From NCBI GenBank assembly GCA_017822615.1, contig GCA_017822615.1_4530.1: DNA of 64,000 nt; one strand, given 5' to 3'. A program made the position numbers and the translations under genes. Position 1 is the stretch's first letter, and each line of letters opens with the position of its first letter. This DNA is from a phage. The notes beneath the pieces are model-generated. The model searched no databases and was not told where the DNA came from. It was given only the letters and a program-made list of their open reading frames with translations. This document shows, in pieces, positions 6,717 to 35,740 of this stretch.

Positions 6717-7151
6717 ATGCAAAACATCAAACTGACTTGGACCGAAGCTAAAGAAGCAATGAAGGAAGGTAGACGTGTTGAGCACAGTTATTTTTGCGGT
6801 GGTGAATGGTTTGAGATGCGAGATGGTGTTATTCTCGACGAACAAGGTTATAACATGGAAACTTGGTTCAGAGGGGAAGCTTGGCAGGAAGAGGGTTGGT
6901 CTGTAATTGAAAAAGAAGACAGTAAGGAAGAAGGCGTGTTGTCTAATGTAGAACGCAAGATGAGGGAAACAAAGATACCTGCTTTGGATTTTGTATACCT
7001 GGAAGAACTTGTGGCAGCATCTTTTGTAGCAGGAAATCTTTGGAATACACCTGTTAGCCGACTGGAGAACCAAAATAACCCATCTGCTCGTAATCACAAG
7101 CTTTATAAGGGTAAAGGTCACAACAAATTAAAGAAAGGAAAGAAGAAATGA
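6717..7151 (+). CDS. DUF2829-like protein (family that includes Thoeris anti-defence Tad2)
   Basis: 144 aa; N-terminal LTWTEAKEAMKEGRRVEH and later ETWFRGEAWQEEGWSV resemble the DUF2829 pattern by eye; Lys-rich tail. Confidence 0.4.
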   Translation: MQNIKLTWTEAKEAMKEGRRVEHSYFCGGEWFEMRDGVILDEQGYNMETWFRGEAWQEEGWSVIEKEDSKEEGVLSNVERKMRETKIPALDFVYLEELVAASFVAGNLWNTPVSRLENQNNPSARNHKLYKGKGHNKLKKGKKK

Positions 7152-7872: not shown

Positions 7873-8081
7873 GTGGATGGATTAAAGTATCTGGTACCGA
7901 GGATGTTCCTATCGGAGAGTGGCTTGTAATCATGGCAAACGGCAAGAAGGGATTCTGTGAAGTTAACAAAACACGCAATGGCACGATAGCTGTTATCAAT
8001 GGTCATTTTTATTTTGACTTGGCACCTGTGATCGCATACCATGCACTACCAACATATGAAGAGGAGATTAACAATGGCTAA
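7869..8081 (+). CDS. hypothetical protein
   Basis: 70 aa, GTGA overlap with upstream gene. Confidence 0.4.
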   Translation: MSGWIKVSGTEDVPIGEWLVIMANGKKGFCEVNKTRNGTIAVINGHFYFDLAPVIAYHALPTYEEEINNG

Positions 8082-8397
8082 CAAAGAACCACATGTATAC
8101 ACTGCACTGGTAAAGCACTTGAACAAAGAACGTAACAAGATCATTGCAGATTATCGTAAATTTAAACGTAGTAGTCTAAATCGTAAATACATGCCACATG
8201 CAGCTTTTGACGCTACACGTGCAGTGTTTCGTGCAAAGATTGCAGAAATGGATAATCTGCTTAAGCTTGCACGATTATCTATTCAGGCATCCAAAGTAAC
8301 AGGAGTCACTCACTTCTTTGACTTCGATACTAAAGCACTATATGCACCAGAAGCAGGTGAACAATTGATTTATCTACTTACCAAAAATAAGTGTTGA
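8074..8397 (+). CDS. hypothetical protein
   Basis: start moved to ATG 8074 (MANKEPH...) with GAGGAG RBS at 8061-8066. Confidence 0.45.
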   Translation: MANKEPHVYTALVKHLNKERNKIIADYRKFKRSSLNRKYMPHAAFDATRAVFRAKIAEMDNLLKLARLSIQASKVTGVTHFFDFDTKALYAPEAGEQLIYLLTKNKC

Positions 8398-8422
8398 CTT
8401 TTTTCAAAAAATATGCTACCCT
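8394..8422 (+). promoter_or_regulatory. sigma70-like promoter
   Basis: TTGACT (8394-8399) N17 TACCCT (8417-8422), start of a 170-bp non-coding leader. Confidence 0.4.
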
Positions 8423-8566
8423 AACCCCGAAGGGTCGAGCGATAGCGAGTATAGATTATGTAATAGATTAATCTCTATCGTTAGATGTTCGAAGAACAGA
8501 GATTTAAGTACTTGTTCTTATCGGTAGATGATCGTAAGATCAAGAACAATAATAGGAGAGTGTGTT

Positions 8567-8764
8567 ATGTTAGTCAGTGAAATACTACCTGACTCTAATG
8601 GTAATCAGATCACTATTGATTGGTTTCCTGGTACTGGTACACTAGATCTAACTGCTGAATGGTCTGGTGATATTTATGGAGAAGGTGTGTTATCATTGTC
8701 TACAGAACAAATGATCATCCTTCGTGACTTCTTAATTAGTTTAGATCTAGGAGAAAACAAATGA
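8567..8764 (+). CDS. hypothetical protein
   Basis: start moved to ATG 8567 (MLVSEIL...) after AGGAG RBS. Confidence 0.4.
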   Translation: MLVSEILPDSNGNQITIDWFPGTGTLDLTAEWSGDIYGEGVLSLSTEQMIILRDFLISLDLGENK

Positions 8765-9030
8765 GTAAAACTTCTGTTGAGTTTATCGAGAAATCCCCTG
8801 TTCCAAAGTTATACCGTTTATCTGAAATTGAACCTATGTCTGTTTTCTATTACTACAACTCAGAAGTAAATGAACAAGAACGGGACTACTACTTAGCTAC
8901 AGATACAGGTGCAGTTTGCTTAACAGGTTCTCGTGCAGGAGAATACATTGCAAATAGTCGTTTTAATGAAGCAGATTCCTGTTGGGCTAAGGTTGAAACT
9001 AAGATCGTCATCAACATCATCAATCATTAA
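8761..9030 (+). CDS. hypothetical protein
   Basis: 89 aa, ATGA overlap. Confidence 0.45.
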   Translation: MSKTSVEFIEKSPVPKLYRLSEIEPMSVFYYYNSEVNEQERDYYLATDTGAVCLTGSRAGEYIANSRFNEADSCWAKVETKIVINIINH

Positions 9031-9052
9031 GATTAATCTCACAAAGAGTTAC

Positions 9053-9082
9053 TTGACATGTGCAAAGCTCTTTGTGTAGAAT
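9053..9082 (+). promoter_or_regulatory. sigma70-like promoter flanked by 9-bp inverted repeat
   Basis: TTGACA (9053-9058) N18 TAGAAT (9077-9082); CACAAAGAG (9040-9048) and CTCTTTGTG (9068-9076) bracket the -35. Confidence 0.5.
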
Positions 9083-9112
9083 AAAGATTCACTTACTAAG
9101 GAGACTTTATAA

Positions 9113-9310
9113 ATGGCTACAAAGAAACAGAAAATGAAATGTCTTACTCTTACTGAACTGGGTCAAGCTTCCAACTGCGTTACTGTTGGTAAGATTTATT
9201 CTACAGTTCTTGATAAAGACAACAACAGTTTTACTTTCAAAGATGATAACGGAAACCCTCAAGTTGGAATCTACCCTTCCTGTGCTTTTGGTACTTGGGA
9301 AAAAGTGTAA
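9113..9310 (+). CDS. hypothetical protein
   Basis: 65 aa, AAGGAG RBS. Confidence 0.4.
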   Translation: MATKKQKMKCLTLTELGQASNCVTVGKIYSTVLDKDNNSFTFKDDNGNPQVGIYPSCAFGTWEKV

Positions 9311-9353
9311 CTAATTAGAGGGTATACTTGTAAACAAGATTAAGGAGGCATTT

Positions 9354-9527
9354 ATGGGAGATAAACAAAGTAACATCCGTTACGCGCTTTATGGAAGAAT
9401 GGGTGCAGATTGTGAATGGATGCTTCTGTCGCAACGTATACCCTCTTACAAAGAGGCTCTTGAAAAAAGAGACTATTATAAACAAACATGGCGTTTTGTC
9501 ATTTGTAAACACTATTTGGAGGCGTGA
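9354..9527 (+). CDS. small hypothetical protein (57 aa)
   Basis: not in track; AAGGAGG RBS at 9342-9348, ATG 9354, TGATG junction with next gene; replaces minus-strand shadow ORF 9315..9542. Confidence 0.35.
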   Translation: MGDKQSNIRYALYGRMGADCEWMLLSQRIPSYKEALEKRDYYKQTWRFVICKHYLEA

Positions 9528-9835
9528 TGAGTACATTATCATTAGCAGTTATGGTACATCAACAGTATGAAGAAGCTGTGAAAGATTCAGAAAACCCTTC
9601 TACATTGGTGTTTGAAGATCGGACTGGTCTTAAATGGGTAGAATCTTGTGGTGAACTTTACTTTTGGTATCCACAAGGTTGCACAAGTAATTCTAATCTG
9701 TATAGTTATGAATTGGAGTATCGTGCGCCTGTAGACGAAGATGATAATTACATCATGTATTATGTTAATAATGGTTGCGGTGAAATGTTTAATGTAGTAT
9801 TCTCTAAAGCCTTGAAGTCCGACGAGGAGATGTGA
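9527..9835 (+). CDS. hypothetical protein
   Basis: ATG at 9527 preferred over GTG 9524 because of GGAGG spacing. Confidence 0.45.
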   Translation: MSTLSLAVMVHQQYEEAVKDSENPSTLVFEDRTGLKWVESCGELYFWYPQGCTSNSNLYSYELEYRAPVDEDDNYIMYYVNNGCGEMFNVVFSKALKSDEEM

Positions 9836-10194
9836 TGAGAAAAGTGCTGTTTGCCTTGCTGTTATTAGCCTCTACTGGTGTTTTTGCTCGTGACGGCTTT
9901 AAGGTTGGGGCAGATCGCACTAAATTCTTCACATGGTTCGGAGGTGAAGCACTTTACCAAGACGGTAAAGATAAAATAAAATGTAAGTATGTAGAAACAT
10001 TAAAAGGTGTGGATGATTGGGGCGATGCTTATCAAGCAACAGGCTTCTCTTGTAAGAAACACCTTTACATTGTAGTAAAAGAGTTTCAAGATATAAATAA
10101 ACAACTTTTTATTTTAGTAGATCCTAGTAAATTTAATGAACGGGCAGCTTATGAAGTTGACATGTTCTTAGAATACAAGAAGGAGGAAAAATGA
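9832..10194 (+). CDS. secreted protein with signal peptide
   Basis: MMRKVLFALLLLASTGVFA signal peptide. Confidence 0.45.
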   Translation: MMRKVLFALLLLASTGVFARDGFKVGADRTKFFTWFGGEALYQDGKDKIKCKYVETLKGVDDWGDAYQATGFSCKKHLYIVVKEFQDINKQLFILVDPSKFNERAAYEVDMFLEYKKEEK

Positions 10195-10553
10195 GAGAAA
10201 CGATTGTAGATGTTGTTATTAATGGTCAACGTTATGTGCCTGTTGTAGATAAAGCTGAACCAGATGCTTTAGATGTTGTTTTTGAAGACGATGATCTTGG
10301 CACTGTTACTGTGCGTGAATATTTCAGACGACTGCTCTCTACACTTTGGGAAGAAGAAGACAGTTTCAGTGGAAAACGTCCTTTCGGTAATTCTTGTTGG
10401 CAGTTCGATTTGATTATTGGTTTGATCGATGCTGGGTACCTGGAAGGTAAAGTTTATCGTGACGAAGATGGTGGTATAGAAGATACCGACTATGATCGAG
10501 AAGAAGCAGATAAACTAATTCAAGGTCTGATCGCACGTATGTGTTTAGGTTAA
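10191..10553 (+). CDS. acidic hypothetical protein
   Basis: 120 aa, D/E-rich. Confidence 0.45.
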   Translation: MRETIVDVVINGQRYVPVVDKAEPDALDVVFEDDDLGTVTVREYFRRLLSTLWEEEDSFSGKRPFGNSCWQFDLIIGLIDAGYLEGKVYRDEDGGIEDTDYDREEADKLIQGLIARMCLG

Positions 10554-15584: not shown

Positions 15585-15592
15585 TAAAACTT

Positions 15593-15617
15593 AAAGGCGC
15601 ACTTTGCGCCTTTTTTG
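15593..15617 (+). terminator. rho-independent terminator
   Basis: AAAGGCGCA-ctt-TGCGCCTTT then TTTTTT. Confidence 0.6.
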
Positions 15618-15687
15618 ATTTCCCTCAAAGCTTTTTTCGGTTGAAAGAGGTAGAATAATAGTTCTACTCACAAAATAAGGATTAATA

Positions 15688-20994: not shown

Positions 20995-20997
20995 GTG

Positions 20998-21025
20998 TTG
21001 ACATAGTTCTTAAAAAGAGTAAGAT
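20998..21025 (+). promoter_or_regulatory. sigma70-like promoter upstream of terC
   Basis: TTGACA (20998-21003) N16 TAAGAT (21020-21025); leader contains GCGGGGA-atagt-TCCCCGC hairpin at 21038-21056. Confidence 0.5.
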
Positions 21026-21073
21026 ATATCACATGAAGCGGGGAATAGTTCCCCGCAAAGAGAGGAGAAAAGA

Positions 21074-22054: not shown

Positions 22055-22080
22055 AGCCTCCTTCGGGAGGCTATTTTATA
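22055..22080 (+). terminator. rho-independent terminator
   Basis: AGCCTCC-ttcg-GGAGGCT then ATTTTAT. Confidence 0.6.
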
Positions 22081-28682: not shown

Positions 28683-28698
28683 TAATTAACAAATGATT

Positions 28699-28718
28699 TT
28701 GAGGGGGAGAAGTCCCCC
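28699..28718 (+). terminator. GC-rich hairpin after terD (weak terminator)
   Basis: GAGGGGGA-gaag-TCCCCCTC; only TT following. Confidence 0.35.
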
Positions 28719-28781
28719 TCTTGCAATAAAGCCTCTATCGTGTTATACTAGAAGTTCGTTAACTTAAAAAGGAGGCAAAAT

Positions 28782-29588
28782 TTGCTGATAAAAAACTTTG
28801 TAACAGTTGCGTTACTATCCTTAACTGCTTTTACATTTACACCTGTTGTGGCGAAAGCCGAAGCTGCAAACGTAAAAACCGCTAAAGTAGTTCACAAATG
28901 TACAAAGCAATATAATGATAAAATTCTATTAGCTTGTGCAATTTACGCAGAAGGTCGCGGTCTGGGTAAAAAAGGAATGAATGCCGTTGGGAATGTGGTA
29001 ATCAACAGAAGAAATGATGCCTACTTCCCTAACACAGTCAAGGGAGTCTTGTTCCAGAAAGGGCAATTCTCATATGCGAAAACTTTTAACGTGACAGAGA
29101 AAGATAAGTGGCAGGAAGCAAAAGCAATAGCGGAGCGTTTACTTTATTTAGAGAAACATTTTCCTGAATTGCGGTCTGTTTTAGATGTTACTAAAGGTGC
29201 TCTATACTTCAAGAAACGGAATATAAGGACACACTGGGAGCGTGATATGCGTCTTGTTTATCGAGATAAAGTGCATGGTTTCTATCTACCAAAGGGAGTT
29301 AAAATGCAAGAAGATAATACTGTTGTTGTAGCAAGTTACCTGGTTGTCGGTCTTACCGAAGAGGACGTATACTACACCCGTAAACATTTGGAAGCATACG
29401 CTACTTTGTTTATGGAAGATGAAAAGGATGTAGATAAATATAGCATTGATATGATCAACGACAGTATTTATCCTTGTATGGTTCTTAAAGTAGATGCTGT
29501 GCTGTGGGAGCGTTTTGCAAGGACTCATGATGCTGTAGAATGCTCCGCAGTAATGTCTCAAAACAACATTTTAGGGGAGATTCACTGA
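28782..29588 (+). CDS. cell-wall hydrolase (SleB/CwlJ-like) with N-terminal signal/SAR segment
   Basis: TTG start after AAGGAGG; hydrophobic N-terminus then LLACAIYAEGRG...VGNVVINRR...QKGQFSY matching the SleB-type hydrolase core. Confidence 0.5.
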   Translation: MLIKNFVTVALLSLTAFTFTPVVAKAEAANVKTAKVVHKCTKQYNDKILLACAIYAEGRGLGKKGMNAVGNVVINRRNDAYFPNTVKGVLFQKGQFSYAKTFNVTEKDKWQEAKAIAERLLYLEKHFPELRSVLDVTKGALYFKKRNIRTHWERDMRLVYRDKVHGFYLPKGVKMQEDNTVVVASYLVVGLTEEDVYYTRKHLEAYATLFMEDEKDVDKYSIDMINDSIYPCMVLKVDAVLWERFARTHDAVECSAVMSQNNILGEIH

Positions 29589-35216: not shown

Positions 35217-35236
35217 GGGCTTCGGCCCTTTTATTA
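35216..35236 (+). terminator. short hairpin terminator
   Basis: AGGGC-ttcg-GCCCT then TTTATT. Confidence 0.45.
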
Positions 35237-35246
35237 AAAATACCTG

Positions 35247-35275
35247 TTGACAACTTTGCGGAAGGGACTTATACT
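35247..35275 (+). promoter_or_regulatory. sigma70-like promoter
   Basis: TTGACA N17 TATACT. Confidence 0.5.
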
Positions 35276-35308
35276 TGTCTCATCAACCAAACAAGAGGAG
35301 AAGTAAAA

Positions 35309-35740
35309 ATGCGTATGACAATCGATCTGAATGCAAAAGTTAAAGCTGCTGGTGCTCTGGGTGCTGGTGTTATTAAACACAAACAAGCGTTGGCATTTGC
35401 CATCCCACACATGATTGTTGAGGATCATCCTGAAGAGTTTGCTGTAAAAGTTGTTGAGAACAATGTCTCTGTTATTGAACATATCCCAACTGGACGTTCT
35501 TACCGTGTTGTTTCTTCTAAAGGTTTCCGTTTCGATGTAAGCCCTTCTTTCACAAAAGGTGCTGGTCGTAGTAAAGTGGGTATTCTTTCTTACAAATATT
35601 ATATCGATAAAGTTGCAGATGGTGTTGCATTCTGTCGTGTAAGTGAAGGTAAAGTAGATATCATCTTTAAAAATACCAAAAACATGGTTATTTCTGACGA
35701 TGGTAAAGTTGACCTCACTATTGAGTTCGCTAACAACTAA
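35309..35740 (+). CDS. hypothetical protein
   Basis: 143 aa, AGGAG RBS. Confidence 0.45.
   Translation: MRMTIDLNAKVKAAGALGAGVIKHKQALAFAIPHMIVEDHPEEFAVKVVENNVSVIEHIPTGRSYRVVSSKGFRFDVSPSFTKGAGRSKVGILSYKYYIDKVADGVAFCRVSEGKVDIIFKNTKNMVISDDGKVDLTIEFANN

What the first reader, a model, noticed from the sequence alone, without database searches (positions are those of the whole stretch)
9040..9082. Promoter bracketed by a perfect 9-bp inverted repeat
CACAAAGAG (9040-9048) and CTCTTTGTG (9068-9076) flank the -35 TTGACA of a near-consensus promoter (TTGACA-N18-TAGAAT). The arrangement looks like an operator for a dimeric regulator, or a hairpin that terminates upstream transcription while overlapping the promoter.
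Basis: seen in the sequence. Interest (0 to 1): 0.35.

Follow-up and report, generated by a model that had tools for sequence, protein, structure and literature searches.

The report
Phage promoter wrapped in a hairpin
A strong early promoter of an E. coli phage sits inside a hairpin-forming repeat, most likely a combined "end the upstream message, restart here" signal of a kind already known from T4-like phages, not a repressor binding site.

Summary
The window is Escherichia phage ESCO13 (Phapecoctavirus), reverse strand. CACAAAGAG (9040-9048) and CTCTTTGTG (9068-9076) flank the -35 of TTGACA-N18-TAGAAT, in the 82-nt gap between ESCO13_00243 and _00242.

- **The repeat alone is not significant.** Perfect 9-bp inverted repeats occur at chance frequency (14 seen, 11.4 expected). 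The 9th pair exists only in the ESCO13 subgroup. The repeat has no second copy in the 150-kb genome.
- **The operator reading is not supported.** The half-sites are 28 bp apart, so out of helical phase. Substitutions are one-sided. A sister clade keeps the promoter and gene but lacks the repeat.
- **The hairpin reading has moderate support.**
  - The repeat is the core of a 21-pair sense-strand RNA hairpin (-16.3 kcal/mol, z -3.25).
  - All five transitions at paired positions keep pairing, as G·U or C-G (P about 0.05).
  - The sister clade has a different hairpin over the same promoter.
  - A second ESCO13 promoter has the same geometry with unrelated arms. Its stem shows compensatory changes in 5 of 11 pairs across several phage groups.
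  - Intergenic gaps in this genome are generally structured.

This matches the PeSL promoter/stem-loop composites described for T4-type phages. Termination is not shown, and there is no U-tract. Interest is low to moderate: a new member of a known kind.

The parts
8761..9030 (+). Upstream gene ESCO13_00243 (89 aa, PHROG 24836, function unknown). Its read-through mRNA would carry the hairpin at its 3' end.
   Evidence: Annotation; family search. In the phiWec179 clade its place is taken by a 178-aa gene whose C-terminal half shows only a weak BLASTP match (23% identity over 77 residues, E = 0.002).
9033..9084 (+). Extended imperfect hairpin of 21 pairs predicted for sense-strand RNA. The -35 hexamer lies in and next to the terminal loop, and the -10 hexamer lies in the outer helix.
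   Evidence: Fold of 9031-9090: -16.3 kcal/mol, z -3.25, 0 of 200 shuffles as stable. Pair counts on six haplotypes: 92% of cells paired, against 33-57% when the partners are slid. All haplotypes keep a hairpin of -10.7 to -16.3 kcal/mol.
9040..9048 (+). Left arm CACAAAGAG, at about -49 to -41 relative to the predicted start.
   Evidence: C9040 is specific to the ESCO13 subgroup (others have G). C9042 is T in the KKP3954 type.
9053..9058 (+). -35 hexamer TTGACA.
   Evidence: Invariant in the eight phAPEC8-clade sequences aligned (identity classes of the 65 records).
9068..9076 (+). Right arm CTCTTTGTG. It fills the 3' half of the 18-nt spacer and abuts the -10 hexamer.
   Evidence: C9068 is T in UP17, giving G·U with G9048.
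9077..9082 (+). -10 hexamer TAGAAT.
   Evidence: Invariant in all clades, including phiWec179, phiWec188 and PsgM04F.
9087..9091 (+). Predicted transcription start, inferred as 5-9 nt after the -10. Transcripts from this promoter therefore lack the hairpin.
   Evidence: Inference from standard sigma-70 promoter geometry; not measured.
9099..9104 (+). Shine-Dalgarno AGGAGA of ESCO13_00242.
   Evidence: Annotated ribosome-binding site in KX552041.2.
9113..9310 (+). Downstream gene ESCO13_00242 (65 aa, PHROG 27862, function unknown). It is the first gene served by the promoter; replication genes follow on the same strand.
   Evidence: The protein was found only in 71 phage records, the classified ones all Phapecoctavirus, and is at least 99% identical in 62 of them.

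Best explanation
The element is a composite promoter/stem-loop of the PeSL type.

**Proposed mechanism**
- Host sigma-70 RNA polymerase starts at TTGACA-N18-TAGAAT, near 9087-9091, and transcribes ESCO13_00242 and the genes that follow on the same strand.
- Polymerases arriving from upstream promoters (about 6659 and about 8390) transcribe through 9033-9084. That RNA folds into a 21-pair hairpin.
- The hairpin stem is built from the only positions the promoter leaves free: the bases just upstream of the -35 and the spacer. The -35 hexamer sits in the loop.
- The hairpin is inferred to define, attenuate or stabilise the 3' end of the upstream message, by pausing or termination or as a processing or exonuclease barrier. 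The promoter then restarts transcription for the downstream genes.

**Shown versus inferred**
- Shown: the sequence anatomy, conservation of the promoter, the structure-compatible substitution pattern, and real covariation in an analogous element of the same genome.
- Inferred: that the hairpin forms in vivo, and what it does to the transcript.
For: 1. The promoter is an 11 of 12 match, is intergenic, and has a Shine-Dalgarno and ATG downstream. Its hexamers are invariant in the eight phAPEC8-clade sequences aligned, and the -10 is kept in the divergent clade.
2. Hairpin fold: -16.3 kcal/mol, z -3.25. The whole gap 9031-9112 is in the lowest 3% of same-length genome segments. Of 34 intergenic gaps, 13 are in the lowest 5%, so gaps in this phage are generally structured.
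3. Seven substitutions fall between 9033 and 9084 among six haplotypes.
   - Five hit positions that are paired in the common haplotype, and all five keep the pair in sense RNA: 9042 C to U, 9063 C to U, 9065 A to G and 9068 C to U give G·U, and 9049 U to C turns U·G into C-G.
   - Two changes specific to ESCO13 (9033, 9040) add pairs.
   - The chance of five pair-keeping transitions is (20/36)^5 = 0.05.
   - On the antisense strand these changes would be A·C mismatches.
4. The phiWec179 clade lacks this repeat. It has a different 13-pair hairpin (GAGGTTGTATTCT-GAT-AGAATGCAATCTC) over the -10 of the same promoter: -14.8 kcal/mol, z -3.04.
5. A second ESCO13 promoter (record 141490-141527, outside the window) has the same geometry with unrelated arms: CTTATACTA-TTGACAATGAGTGA-TAGTATAAG-CATAAT.
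   - Relatives occur in Justusliebigvirus, Vequintavirinae, Asteriusvirus and an Erwinia phage.
   - They show compensatory changes in 5 of 11 pairs, 98.7% of cells paired, and 0 of 500 shuffles reaching the covariation score. All wobble pairs are G·U on the sense strand.
6. The gene module upstream differs between clades, and similarity resumes at TAATCT inside the element. PeSLs are described as such junctions.
7. Precedent: in phages RB49 and phi1 the stem-loop can lie between the -35 and -10 or overlap either box. Stems contain G-T pairs, and one tested stem-loop reduced lacZ about as much as rrnB T1 (PMC2839356; PMC4122927).
Against: - There is no two-sided compensatory change at this site. 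Diversity is low: six haplotypes at 95% identity or more.
- The substitution test is marginal: P 0.05, or 0.16 if unpaired positions are counted.
- With the index case removed, only 1 of 123 other promoter-like sites has a bracket of 9 bp or more. That is 0.16 expected, P about 0.15.
- The hairpin energy is not exceptional in absolute terms: top 3%, with 103 comparable places in the window.
- The core stem has only 3 G-C pairs in 9, no U-tract follows, and the terminator scan does not list it. Termination is therefore doubtful, and a stability or processing role is only guessed.
- The antisense strand folds almost as well (-15.5 kcal/mol, z -2.99).
- The element is a single copy. It does not belong to the repeated cassette family of this genome.
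Confidence: 0.55

Rival explanations
1. Fortuitous palindrome. The promoter is real, but the repeat is a chance or hitch-hiking feature of an A+T-rich intergenic spacer and has no function of its own.
For: - 9-bp inverted repeats occur at chance frequency, and the ancestral repeat is only 8 bp.
- Half-site counts are at chance level.
- There are 103 comparably stable 60-nt folds in the window.
- The repeat is absent from the phiWec179 clade, which keeps the promoter and gene.
- The arms are no more conserved than the rest of the gap.
- After removing the index case, promoter-bracketing repeats are not significantly enriched.
Against: - All five transitions at paired positions preserve pairing in the sense strand.
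- The sister clade has an independent hairpin at the same promoter.
- An analogous element in the same genome shows strong covariation.
- Intergenic gaps in this genome are systematically structured.
- A rough combination of the three independent lines gives P of about 0.03 (own estimate, by Fisher's method).
Confidence: 0.3
2. Operator. A dimeric phage or host DNA-binding protein recognises the two 9-bp arms and blocks RNA polymerase, for example to shut the promoter off later in infection.
For: The site has perfect dyad symmetry placed over polymerase contact regions, with arms at about -49 to -41 and -21 to -13. Many phage proteins nearby have no known function.
Against: - There is only one copy in the 150-kb genome.
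- The arms are 28 bp centre to centre, not an integral number of helical turns.
- Substitutions are one-sided and of the G·U-preserving type.
- The repeat is missing where the promoter and gene are conserved.
- The analogous second promoter has quite different arm sequences that covary, which is a signature of structure and not of sequence recognition.
- No helix-turn-helix or other DNA-binding domain was found in nine neighbouring proteins.
Confidence: 0.08
3. DNA-level structure. The repeat extrudes as a cruciform, or forms a hairpin in single-stranded DNA. It would then modulate promoter availability with supercoiling, or serve as a recombination hot spot for swapping gene modules.
For: - The DNA fold is -9.1 kcal/mol, z -2.98.
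- The element sits at a mosaic junction.
- PeSLs were proposed as recombination sites (PMC2839356).
Against: A 19-nt loop and an A+T-rich 9-bp stem make extrusion unfavourable (established knowledge of cruciforms, not tested here). The sense-strand bias of the wobble pairs argues for RNA. No breakpoints were mapped inside the stem.
Confidence: 0.05

Closest known systems
PeSL (promoter-early stem-loop) composite promoter/terminator cassettes of T4-type phages RB49, phi1, PST and nt-1 (Arbiol et al. 2010, PMC2839356; Comeau et al. 2014, PMC4122927)
   Same: [quoted passage not shown]
- A near-consensus sigma-70 early promoter, with a Shine-Dalgarno at the 3' end.
- A stem-loop superimposed on the promoter; published subclasses include overlap with the -35 and placement between the -35 and -10.
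- G-T (G·U) pairs tolerated in the stems.
- Location at a point where gene modules differ between relatives.
   Different: - The host phage is a Phapecoctavirus (Stephanstirmvirinae), not a T4-type phage.
- This copy is unique in sequence, not one of a repeated family of about 100 bp.
- The stem is A+T-rich, not G(n)-loop-C(n).
- The loop is long (19 nt, partly paired internally).
- Terminator activity is untested and no U-tract is present.
The second promoter-embedded hairpin of ESCO13 (record 141490-141527, outside the window) and its relatives in Justusliebigvirus, Vequintavirinae, Asteriusvirus and Erwinia phage Hallingskeid
   Same: Same geometry: a 9-bp left arm just upstream of TTGACA, a right arm in the spacer abutting the -10, and an outer A-U helix that includes the -10. 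Wobble pairs are on the sense strand only.
   Different: - The arm sequences are unrelated.
- The spacer is 17 nt and the loop 14 nt.
- It is widely distributed and strongly covarying.
- The window's element is confined to 65 Phapecoctavirus records and shows only one-sided changes.
Classical promoter-overlapping operators (such as lac O1, lambda OR and LexA boxes; from established knowledge)
   Same: Dyad symmetry overlapping the RNA polymerase binding site.
   Different: Known operators are compact, with half-sites about one helical turn apart or in phase. They usually recur or are conserved together with their regulator. Here the arms are 28 bp apart, unique, and lost in a clade that keeps the promoter.
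Rho-independent (intrinsic) terminators, such as 15593-15613 and about 22056-22072 in this window
   Same: A hairpin just downstream of a stop codon on the transcribed strand.
   Different: There is no G+C-rich stem, no short loop and no U-tract. The site is not reported by the terminator scan.

Membership tests
PeSL (promoter-early stem-loop) composite elements | [quoted passage not shown] | tested here: met
   The gap is 9031-9112, with the stop codon ending at 9030, the Shine-Dalgarno at 9099-9104 and the ATG at 9113.
PeSL (promoter-early stem-loop) composite elements | Strong sigma-70-like early promoter (near TTGACA-N17-TATAAT) | tested here: met
   TTGACA-N18-TAGAAT matches 11 of 12 positions. 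It is conserved in the relatives aligned. Promoter activity itself was not measured.
PeSL (promoter-early stem-loop) composite elements | Stable stem-loop placed within or next to the promoter (five published positions, including overlap with the -35 or between the boxes) | tested here: met
   The 21-pair hairpin at 9033-9084 has the -35 in its loop: -16.3 kcal/mol, z -3.25. The published positions are from PMC2839356.
PeSL (promoter-early stem-loop) composite elements | Member of a repeated, sequence-conserved family (about 100 bp) scattered through plastic regions of the genome | tested here: not met
   No second copy of the arms or the repeat exists in the window or the genome. The genome's repeated cassette (promoter plus a G+C-rich stem-loop after the -10) has a different sequence.
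PeSL (promoter-early stem-loop) composite elements | Association with insertion, deletion or replacement of neighbouring genes between close relatives | tested here: met
   The upstream module is 65 aa + 89 aa in ESCO13, 65 aa + 178 aa in phiWec188 and 178 aa alone in phiWec179. DNA similarity resumes at TAATCT inside the element.
PeSL (promoter-early stem-loop) composite elements | The stem-loop attenuates or terminates transcription coming from upstream | not testable with these tools
   This needs a reporter assay or RNA 3'-end mapping. The sequence lacks a U-tract, and the terminator scan is negative.
PeSL (promoter-early stem-loop) composite elements | Described host group: T4-type myoviruses | tested here: not met
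   The window is Phapecoctavirus ESCO13, subfamily Stephanstirmvirinae. No paper in the library links PeSLs with rV5, phi92 or phAPEC8.
Protein operator (dimeric repressor site) | Dyad-symmetric half-sites | tested here: met
   Perfect 9-bp inverted repeat.
Protein operator (dimeric repressor site) | Half-sites compact or in helical phase | tested here: not met
   The arm centres are 9044 and 9072, 28 bp apart, which is about 2.7 turns (read from the sequence).
Protein operator (dimeric repressor site) | Recurrence at other regulated sites, or conservation of both half-sites wherever the promoter is conserved | tested here: not met
   Unique in the genome. Changes are one-sided. Absent from the phiWec179 clade.
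Protein operator (dimeric repressor site) | A cognate DNA-binding protein | tested here: inconclusive
   No Pfam DNA-binding domain was found in nine neighbouring proteins, and all their PHROG families have unknown function. The rest of the genome was not screened.
Intrinsic (Rho-independent) terminator | G+C-rich stem with a short loop, followed directly by a U-tract | tested here: not met
   The core stem has 3 G-C pairs in 9 and the loop is 19 nt. The stem is followed by UAGAAUAAAGAUUC. The site is not listed.

The most novel reading that the evidence does not exclude
Hairpins that place the -35 hexamer in their loop and use the promoter spacer as their 3' arm may be a distinct, selected design in large virulent coliphages. 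That would cover this site plus the covarying family shared by Stephanstirmvirinae, Vequintavirinae and Asteriusvirus. In this reading the same 50 nt acts twice. As RNA it ends or processes the upstream message. As DNA its ability to extrude or to be melted tunes the promoter, so that read-through and re-initiation are mechanistically coupled and not merely juxtaposed.
Probability: 0.1. Interest if true: 0.6.

Novelty: new member of a known kind. Interest (0 to 1): 0.3.

Why it matters
- **Transcription units.** If the hairpin is functional, phapecoctaviruses, which are widely used as candidate therapeutic coliphages, would organise early transcription with the same overlapping stop/restart modules as T4-like phages. 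That would help define transcription units in genomes where about 90% of early genes have no known function.
- **Gene swapping.** It would also help explain how gene modules are exchanged at these junctions.
- **Methods.** A perfect inverted repeat around a promoter is not evidence for an operator. The direction of wobble-preserving substitutions and comparison with sister clades separate RNA structure from protein recognition.

Tried and rejected
- **More copies of the repeat.** Exact and one-mismatch half-site searches in the window and the rebuilt genome found nothing beyond chance.
- **Rfam.** The whole window at gathering threshold and 8300-9400 at E up to 1 gave no match.
- **More natural variants.**
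  - Two scans of viral contigs found nothing.
  - One metagenome scan returned two contigs with already known haplotypes.
  - A BLAST of the 76-nt core grouped all 65 GenBank records into four identity classes. Five haplotypes were read, and the 41-record class was sampled but not read record by record.
- **More distant homologues of the downstream gene.** It occurs only in 71 phage records, the classified ones all Phapecoctavirus.
- **A regulator next door.** Pfam and PHROGs give no DNA-binding domain.
- **General enrichment of bracketing stems at promoter-like sites.** The mean stem length is the same as background (4.2 against 4.0). Only the two 9-bp cases stand out, and after removing the index case this is not significant.
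- **The 11-bp long-range repeat 9075-9085 / 9195-9205.** The complement is not present in phiWec179, so it is probably chance.
- **The palindrome AGATTAATCT as a shared operator.** It has two intergenic copies, but the 9030 copy is specific to ESCO13 and the 8465 copy is altered in phAPEC8.
- **Literature.** No transcriptome or start-site study of Stephanstirmvirinae or Vequintavirinae was found in the library. The rV5 paper lists only predicted promoters and terminators.

Full report
**Identity and context.** Window 8000-10500 is 100% identical to Escherichia phage ESCO13 (KX552041.2, genus Phapecoctavirus, subfamily Stephanstirmvirinae), read as the reverse complement, with window x = record 138248 - x. 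The finding lies in the 82-nt gap 9031-9112 between two small genes of unknown function, ESCO13_00243 (8761-9030) and ESCO13_00242 (9113-9310). These belong to a long rightward gene string that starts at 6717 and continues on the same strand into genes annotated as helicase, ribonucleotide reductase, primase/helicase and DNA polymerase.

**Observation.**
- The promoter TTGACA (9053-9058) - 18 nt - TAGAAT (9077-9082) is the best + strand match in the first 20 kb, at 11 of 12 positions.
- The left arm is 9040-9048. The right arm, 9068-9076, fills the 3' half of the spacer and touches the -10.

**Is the repeat more than chance?** Taken alone, no.
- Perfect 9-bp inverted repeats with loops of 3-30 nt occur 14 times in the window, against 11.4 +/- 4.4 in shuffles.
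- The half-site has no other meaningful copy in the window or in the rebuilt 149,813-bp genome. The two further exact 9-mers are isolated, and the one inspected lies in a ribosome-binding region. One-mismatch counts are at chance level.
- A 60-nt fold of -16.3 kcal/mol is in the top 3% of windows, but 103 other places do as well.
- In 49 of the 65 related records position 9040 appears to be G, so the shared repeat is 8 bp. This was read in the sampled sequences and inferred from identity class for the rest.
- What is rare is the placement. Only 0.13-0.18% of genome positions have a hexamer bracketed by such a repeat.

**What the relatives show.** The 65 GenBank records that contain the element fall into four identity classes, from which five haplotypes were read.
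- Both hexamers are invariant in the sequences aligned.
- Seven substitutions fall inside 9033-9084, all at positions that are paired in the predicted fold.
  - 9042 C to U, 9063 C to U, 9065 A to G and 9068 C to U each turn a Watson-Crick pair into G·U.
  - 9049 U to C turns U·G into C-G.
  - The ESCO13-specific 9033 U and 9040 C add two pairs.
  - None breaks a pair in the sense strand. On the antisense strand, or for a symmetric protein site, each would be a defect.
- Taking the common haplotype as ancestor, 20 of 36 possible transitions at paired positions preserve pairing, so five out of five has P = 0.05.
- Every haplotype keeps a hairpin of -10.7 to -16.3 kcal/mol. In the KKP3954 type, a destabilising change (+1.9) and a stabilising change (-2.4) occur together.
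- There is no two-sided compensatory change, so this is suggestive and not proof.

**The sister clade.** The phiWec179, phiWec188 and PsgM04F clade has a downstream gene that is 80-82% identical in protein.
- It keeps TAGAAT, a -35-like TTGATC and the upstream TAATCT, but not the repeat.
- Instead it has a different 13-pair hairpin, GAGGTTGTATTCT-GAT-AGAATGCAATCTC, lying over the -10: -14.8 kcal/mol, z -3.04.
- Its upstream gene is also different: 178 aa, with only a weak match (23% identity, E = 0.002) between its C-terminal half and the 89-aa gene. The element is therefore a mosaic junction.

**A second case in the same genome.** A genome-wide scan of 124 promoter-like sites found exactly one other site with a perfect 9-bp bracket: record 141490-141527, CTTATACTA-TTGACAATGAGTGA-TAGTATAAG-CATAAT. 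It is outside the window.
- The geometry is the same, with the right arm abutting the -10. The arm sequences are unrelated.
- This element is shared with Justusliebigvirus, a Vequintavirinae phage (A73), the jumbo Asteriusvirus phages PBECO4 and G17, and Erwinia phage Hallingskeid.
- In seven distinct sequences, 5 of 11 pairs show compensatory changes and 98.7% of cells are paired.
  - None of 500 shuffles reaches the covariation score.
  - Slid controls give 17-56% pairing with 0-1 compensatory pairs.
- One pair shows the full path A-U, then G·U, then G-C (ESCO13, alia, KKE7M). All wobble pairs are G·U on the sense strand.
- A hairpin that holds the -35 in its loop is therefore a real, selected structure in these phages.
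- Caveat: with the index case removed, one further hit among 123 sites is not itself significant (0.16 expected, P about 0.15).

**Genome habit.** Of 34 intergenic gaps examined, 13 have a fold energy in the lowest 5% of same-length random genome segments and 19 are in the lowest 10%. The gap 9031-9112 is at 3%. Other gaps on this strand hold canonical terminators (15593-15613, about 22056-22072), a G+C-rich hairpin directly abutting a -35 (28683-28782), or a promoter followed by a G+C-rich stem-loop (20995-21073).

**Interpretation.** The operator reading fails four tests: recurrence, helical phasing (28 bp centre to centre), symmetric conservation, and presence wherever the promoter is kept. 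No DNA-binding protein is recognisable next door. The canonical terminator reading also fails, because the stem is A+T-rich, the loop is long and there is no U-tract.

The evidence fits a sense-strand RNA stem-loop that exists only in transcripts arriving from upstream. The predicted start at about 9087-9091 lies 3' of the hairpin, which is superimposed on a promoter that restarts transcription. This arrangement is published as the PeSL (promoter-early stem-loop) of T4-type phages.
- The stem-loop may lie between the boxes or overlap the -35 or the -10.
- G-T pairs are seen in the stems.
- One tested stem-loop reduced lacZ expression about as much as rrnB T1.
- The elements mark points of gene-module exchange (PMC2839356; PMC4122927).

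I therefore file the finding as PeSL-like in how it works. It is not a member of the published family in the strict sense, because it is a single copy of unique sequence in a phage that is not T4-type. What the hairpin does to the RNA (attenuation, processing or 3'-end protection) is inference.

**Probabilities.**

| Reading | Probability |
|---|---|
| Functional promoter/stem-loop composite | 0.55 |
| Real promoter with a fortuitous palindrome | 0.30 |
| Operator | 0.08 |
| DNA-level structure | 0.05 |

**Novelty and interest.** This is a new member of a known kind. No paper in the searchable library links PeSLs with rV5-, phi92- or phAPEC8-like phages, and no transcript map exists for them. 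A specialist would not be surprised. The more interesting by-product is the covarying '-35 in the loop' family shared by unrelated large coliphages.

Noticed in passing
ESCO13 record 141490-141527 (L012 41490-41527; outside the window); relatives in L016-L020 and L027-L031: A second sigma-70 promoter has its -35 in the loop of a 9-11-bp hairpin (CTTATACTA / TAGTATAAG) whose right arm abuts the -10. It is shared by Phapecoctavirus, Justusliebigvirus, Vequintavirinae (A73), Asteriusvirus jumbo phages (PBECO4, G17) and Erwinia phage Hallingskeid. Compensatory changes occur in 5 of 11 pairs. It looks like a mobile regulatory cassette crossing phage groups.
   Followed up: yes
window 20995-21073; also ESCO13 record 139.3-149.8 kb (L012 39331-49317), outside the window: A repeated cassette precedes some 20-25 small early genes: TTGACA-N17-TAAGAT/TAAACT followed directly by a G+C-rich stem-loop (consensus about CACATAGGGCGGSAA..TTSCCGCTC), then a Shine-Dalgarno and ATG. 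There is one copy in the window. A loose pattern finds 21 + 7 matches genome-wide. This is the genome's own PeSL-like family and is apparently undescribed for this genus.
   Followed up: partly
window 8398-8566: A 169-nt non-coding leader upstream of ESCO13_00244 is essentially invariant in the phAPEC8 clade over the 110 nt aligned (8461-8570). By eye it is much better conserved towards the phiWec179 clade than the 74% DNA identity of the neighbouring gene.
- It contains three ATCG(T/G)(T/A)AGAT repeats.
- It has GTTCTT/AAGAAC stems forming a predicted three-way junction.
- A CUCU segment (8473-8476) pairs with the AGAG of the Shine-Dalgarno, with one compensatory change.
- A possible promoter, TTGACT-N17-TACCCT, overlaps the stop codon of ESCO13_00245.
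- There is no Rfam match.
It may be a translational control leader.
   Followed up: partly
window 8465-8474 and 9030-9039: The 10-bp palindrome AGATTAATCT occurs exactly twice in the window, both times in adjacent intergenic gaps, and three times in the genome (about 0.4 expected). The 9030 copy is perfect only in the ESCO13 subgroup, and phAPEC8 has AAATTAATCT at 8465. It is probably not a conserved site.
   Followed up: partly
window 9075-9085 and 9195-9205: An 11-bp perfect inverted repeat links the -10 region (TGTAGAATAAA) with the coding sequence of ESCO13_00242 (TTTATTCTACA). The complement is not present at the matching place in phiWec179, so it is probably chance.
   Followed up: partly
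window 9081-9110: In the longer fold a second small hairpin (AUAAAG...CUUUAU) encloses the Shine-Dalgarno of ESCO13_00242. It could form only in read-through RNA, not in transcripts started at the internal promoter. The C/U polymorphism at 9105 keeps the pair as C-G or U·G. This is speculative.
   Followed up: no
window 28683-28782, 15585-15687 and 35221-35312: Other composite gaps on the same strand:
- 28683-28782: a G+C-rich hairpin (GAGGGGGAGAAGTCCCCCTC) directly abutting a -35 TTGCAA.
- 15585-15687: a bidirectional terminator (15593-15613), followed by GTAGAATAA inside a small GTAGAA/TTCTAC hairpin.
- 35221-35312: a promoter TTGACA-N17-TATACT bracketed by a 7-pair stem (CCCTTTT / GGAAGGG).

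   Followed up: no
GenBank records matched: Records named Campylobacter phage B15, Acinetobacter phage vB_AbaM_ABPW7, Pseudomonas phage PsgM04F and Klebsiella phage ZCKP1 are 95-97% identical to E. coli phapecoctaviruses over this region (about 74% for PsgM04F, over the downstream gene only). Their host labels deserve caution.
   Followed up: no
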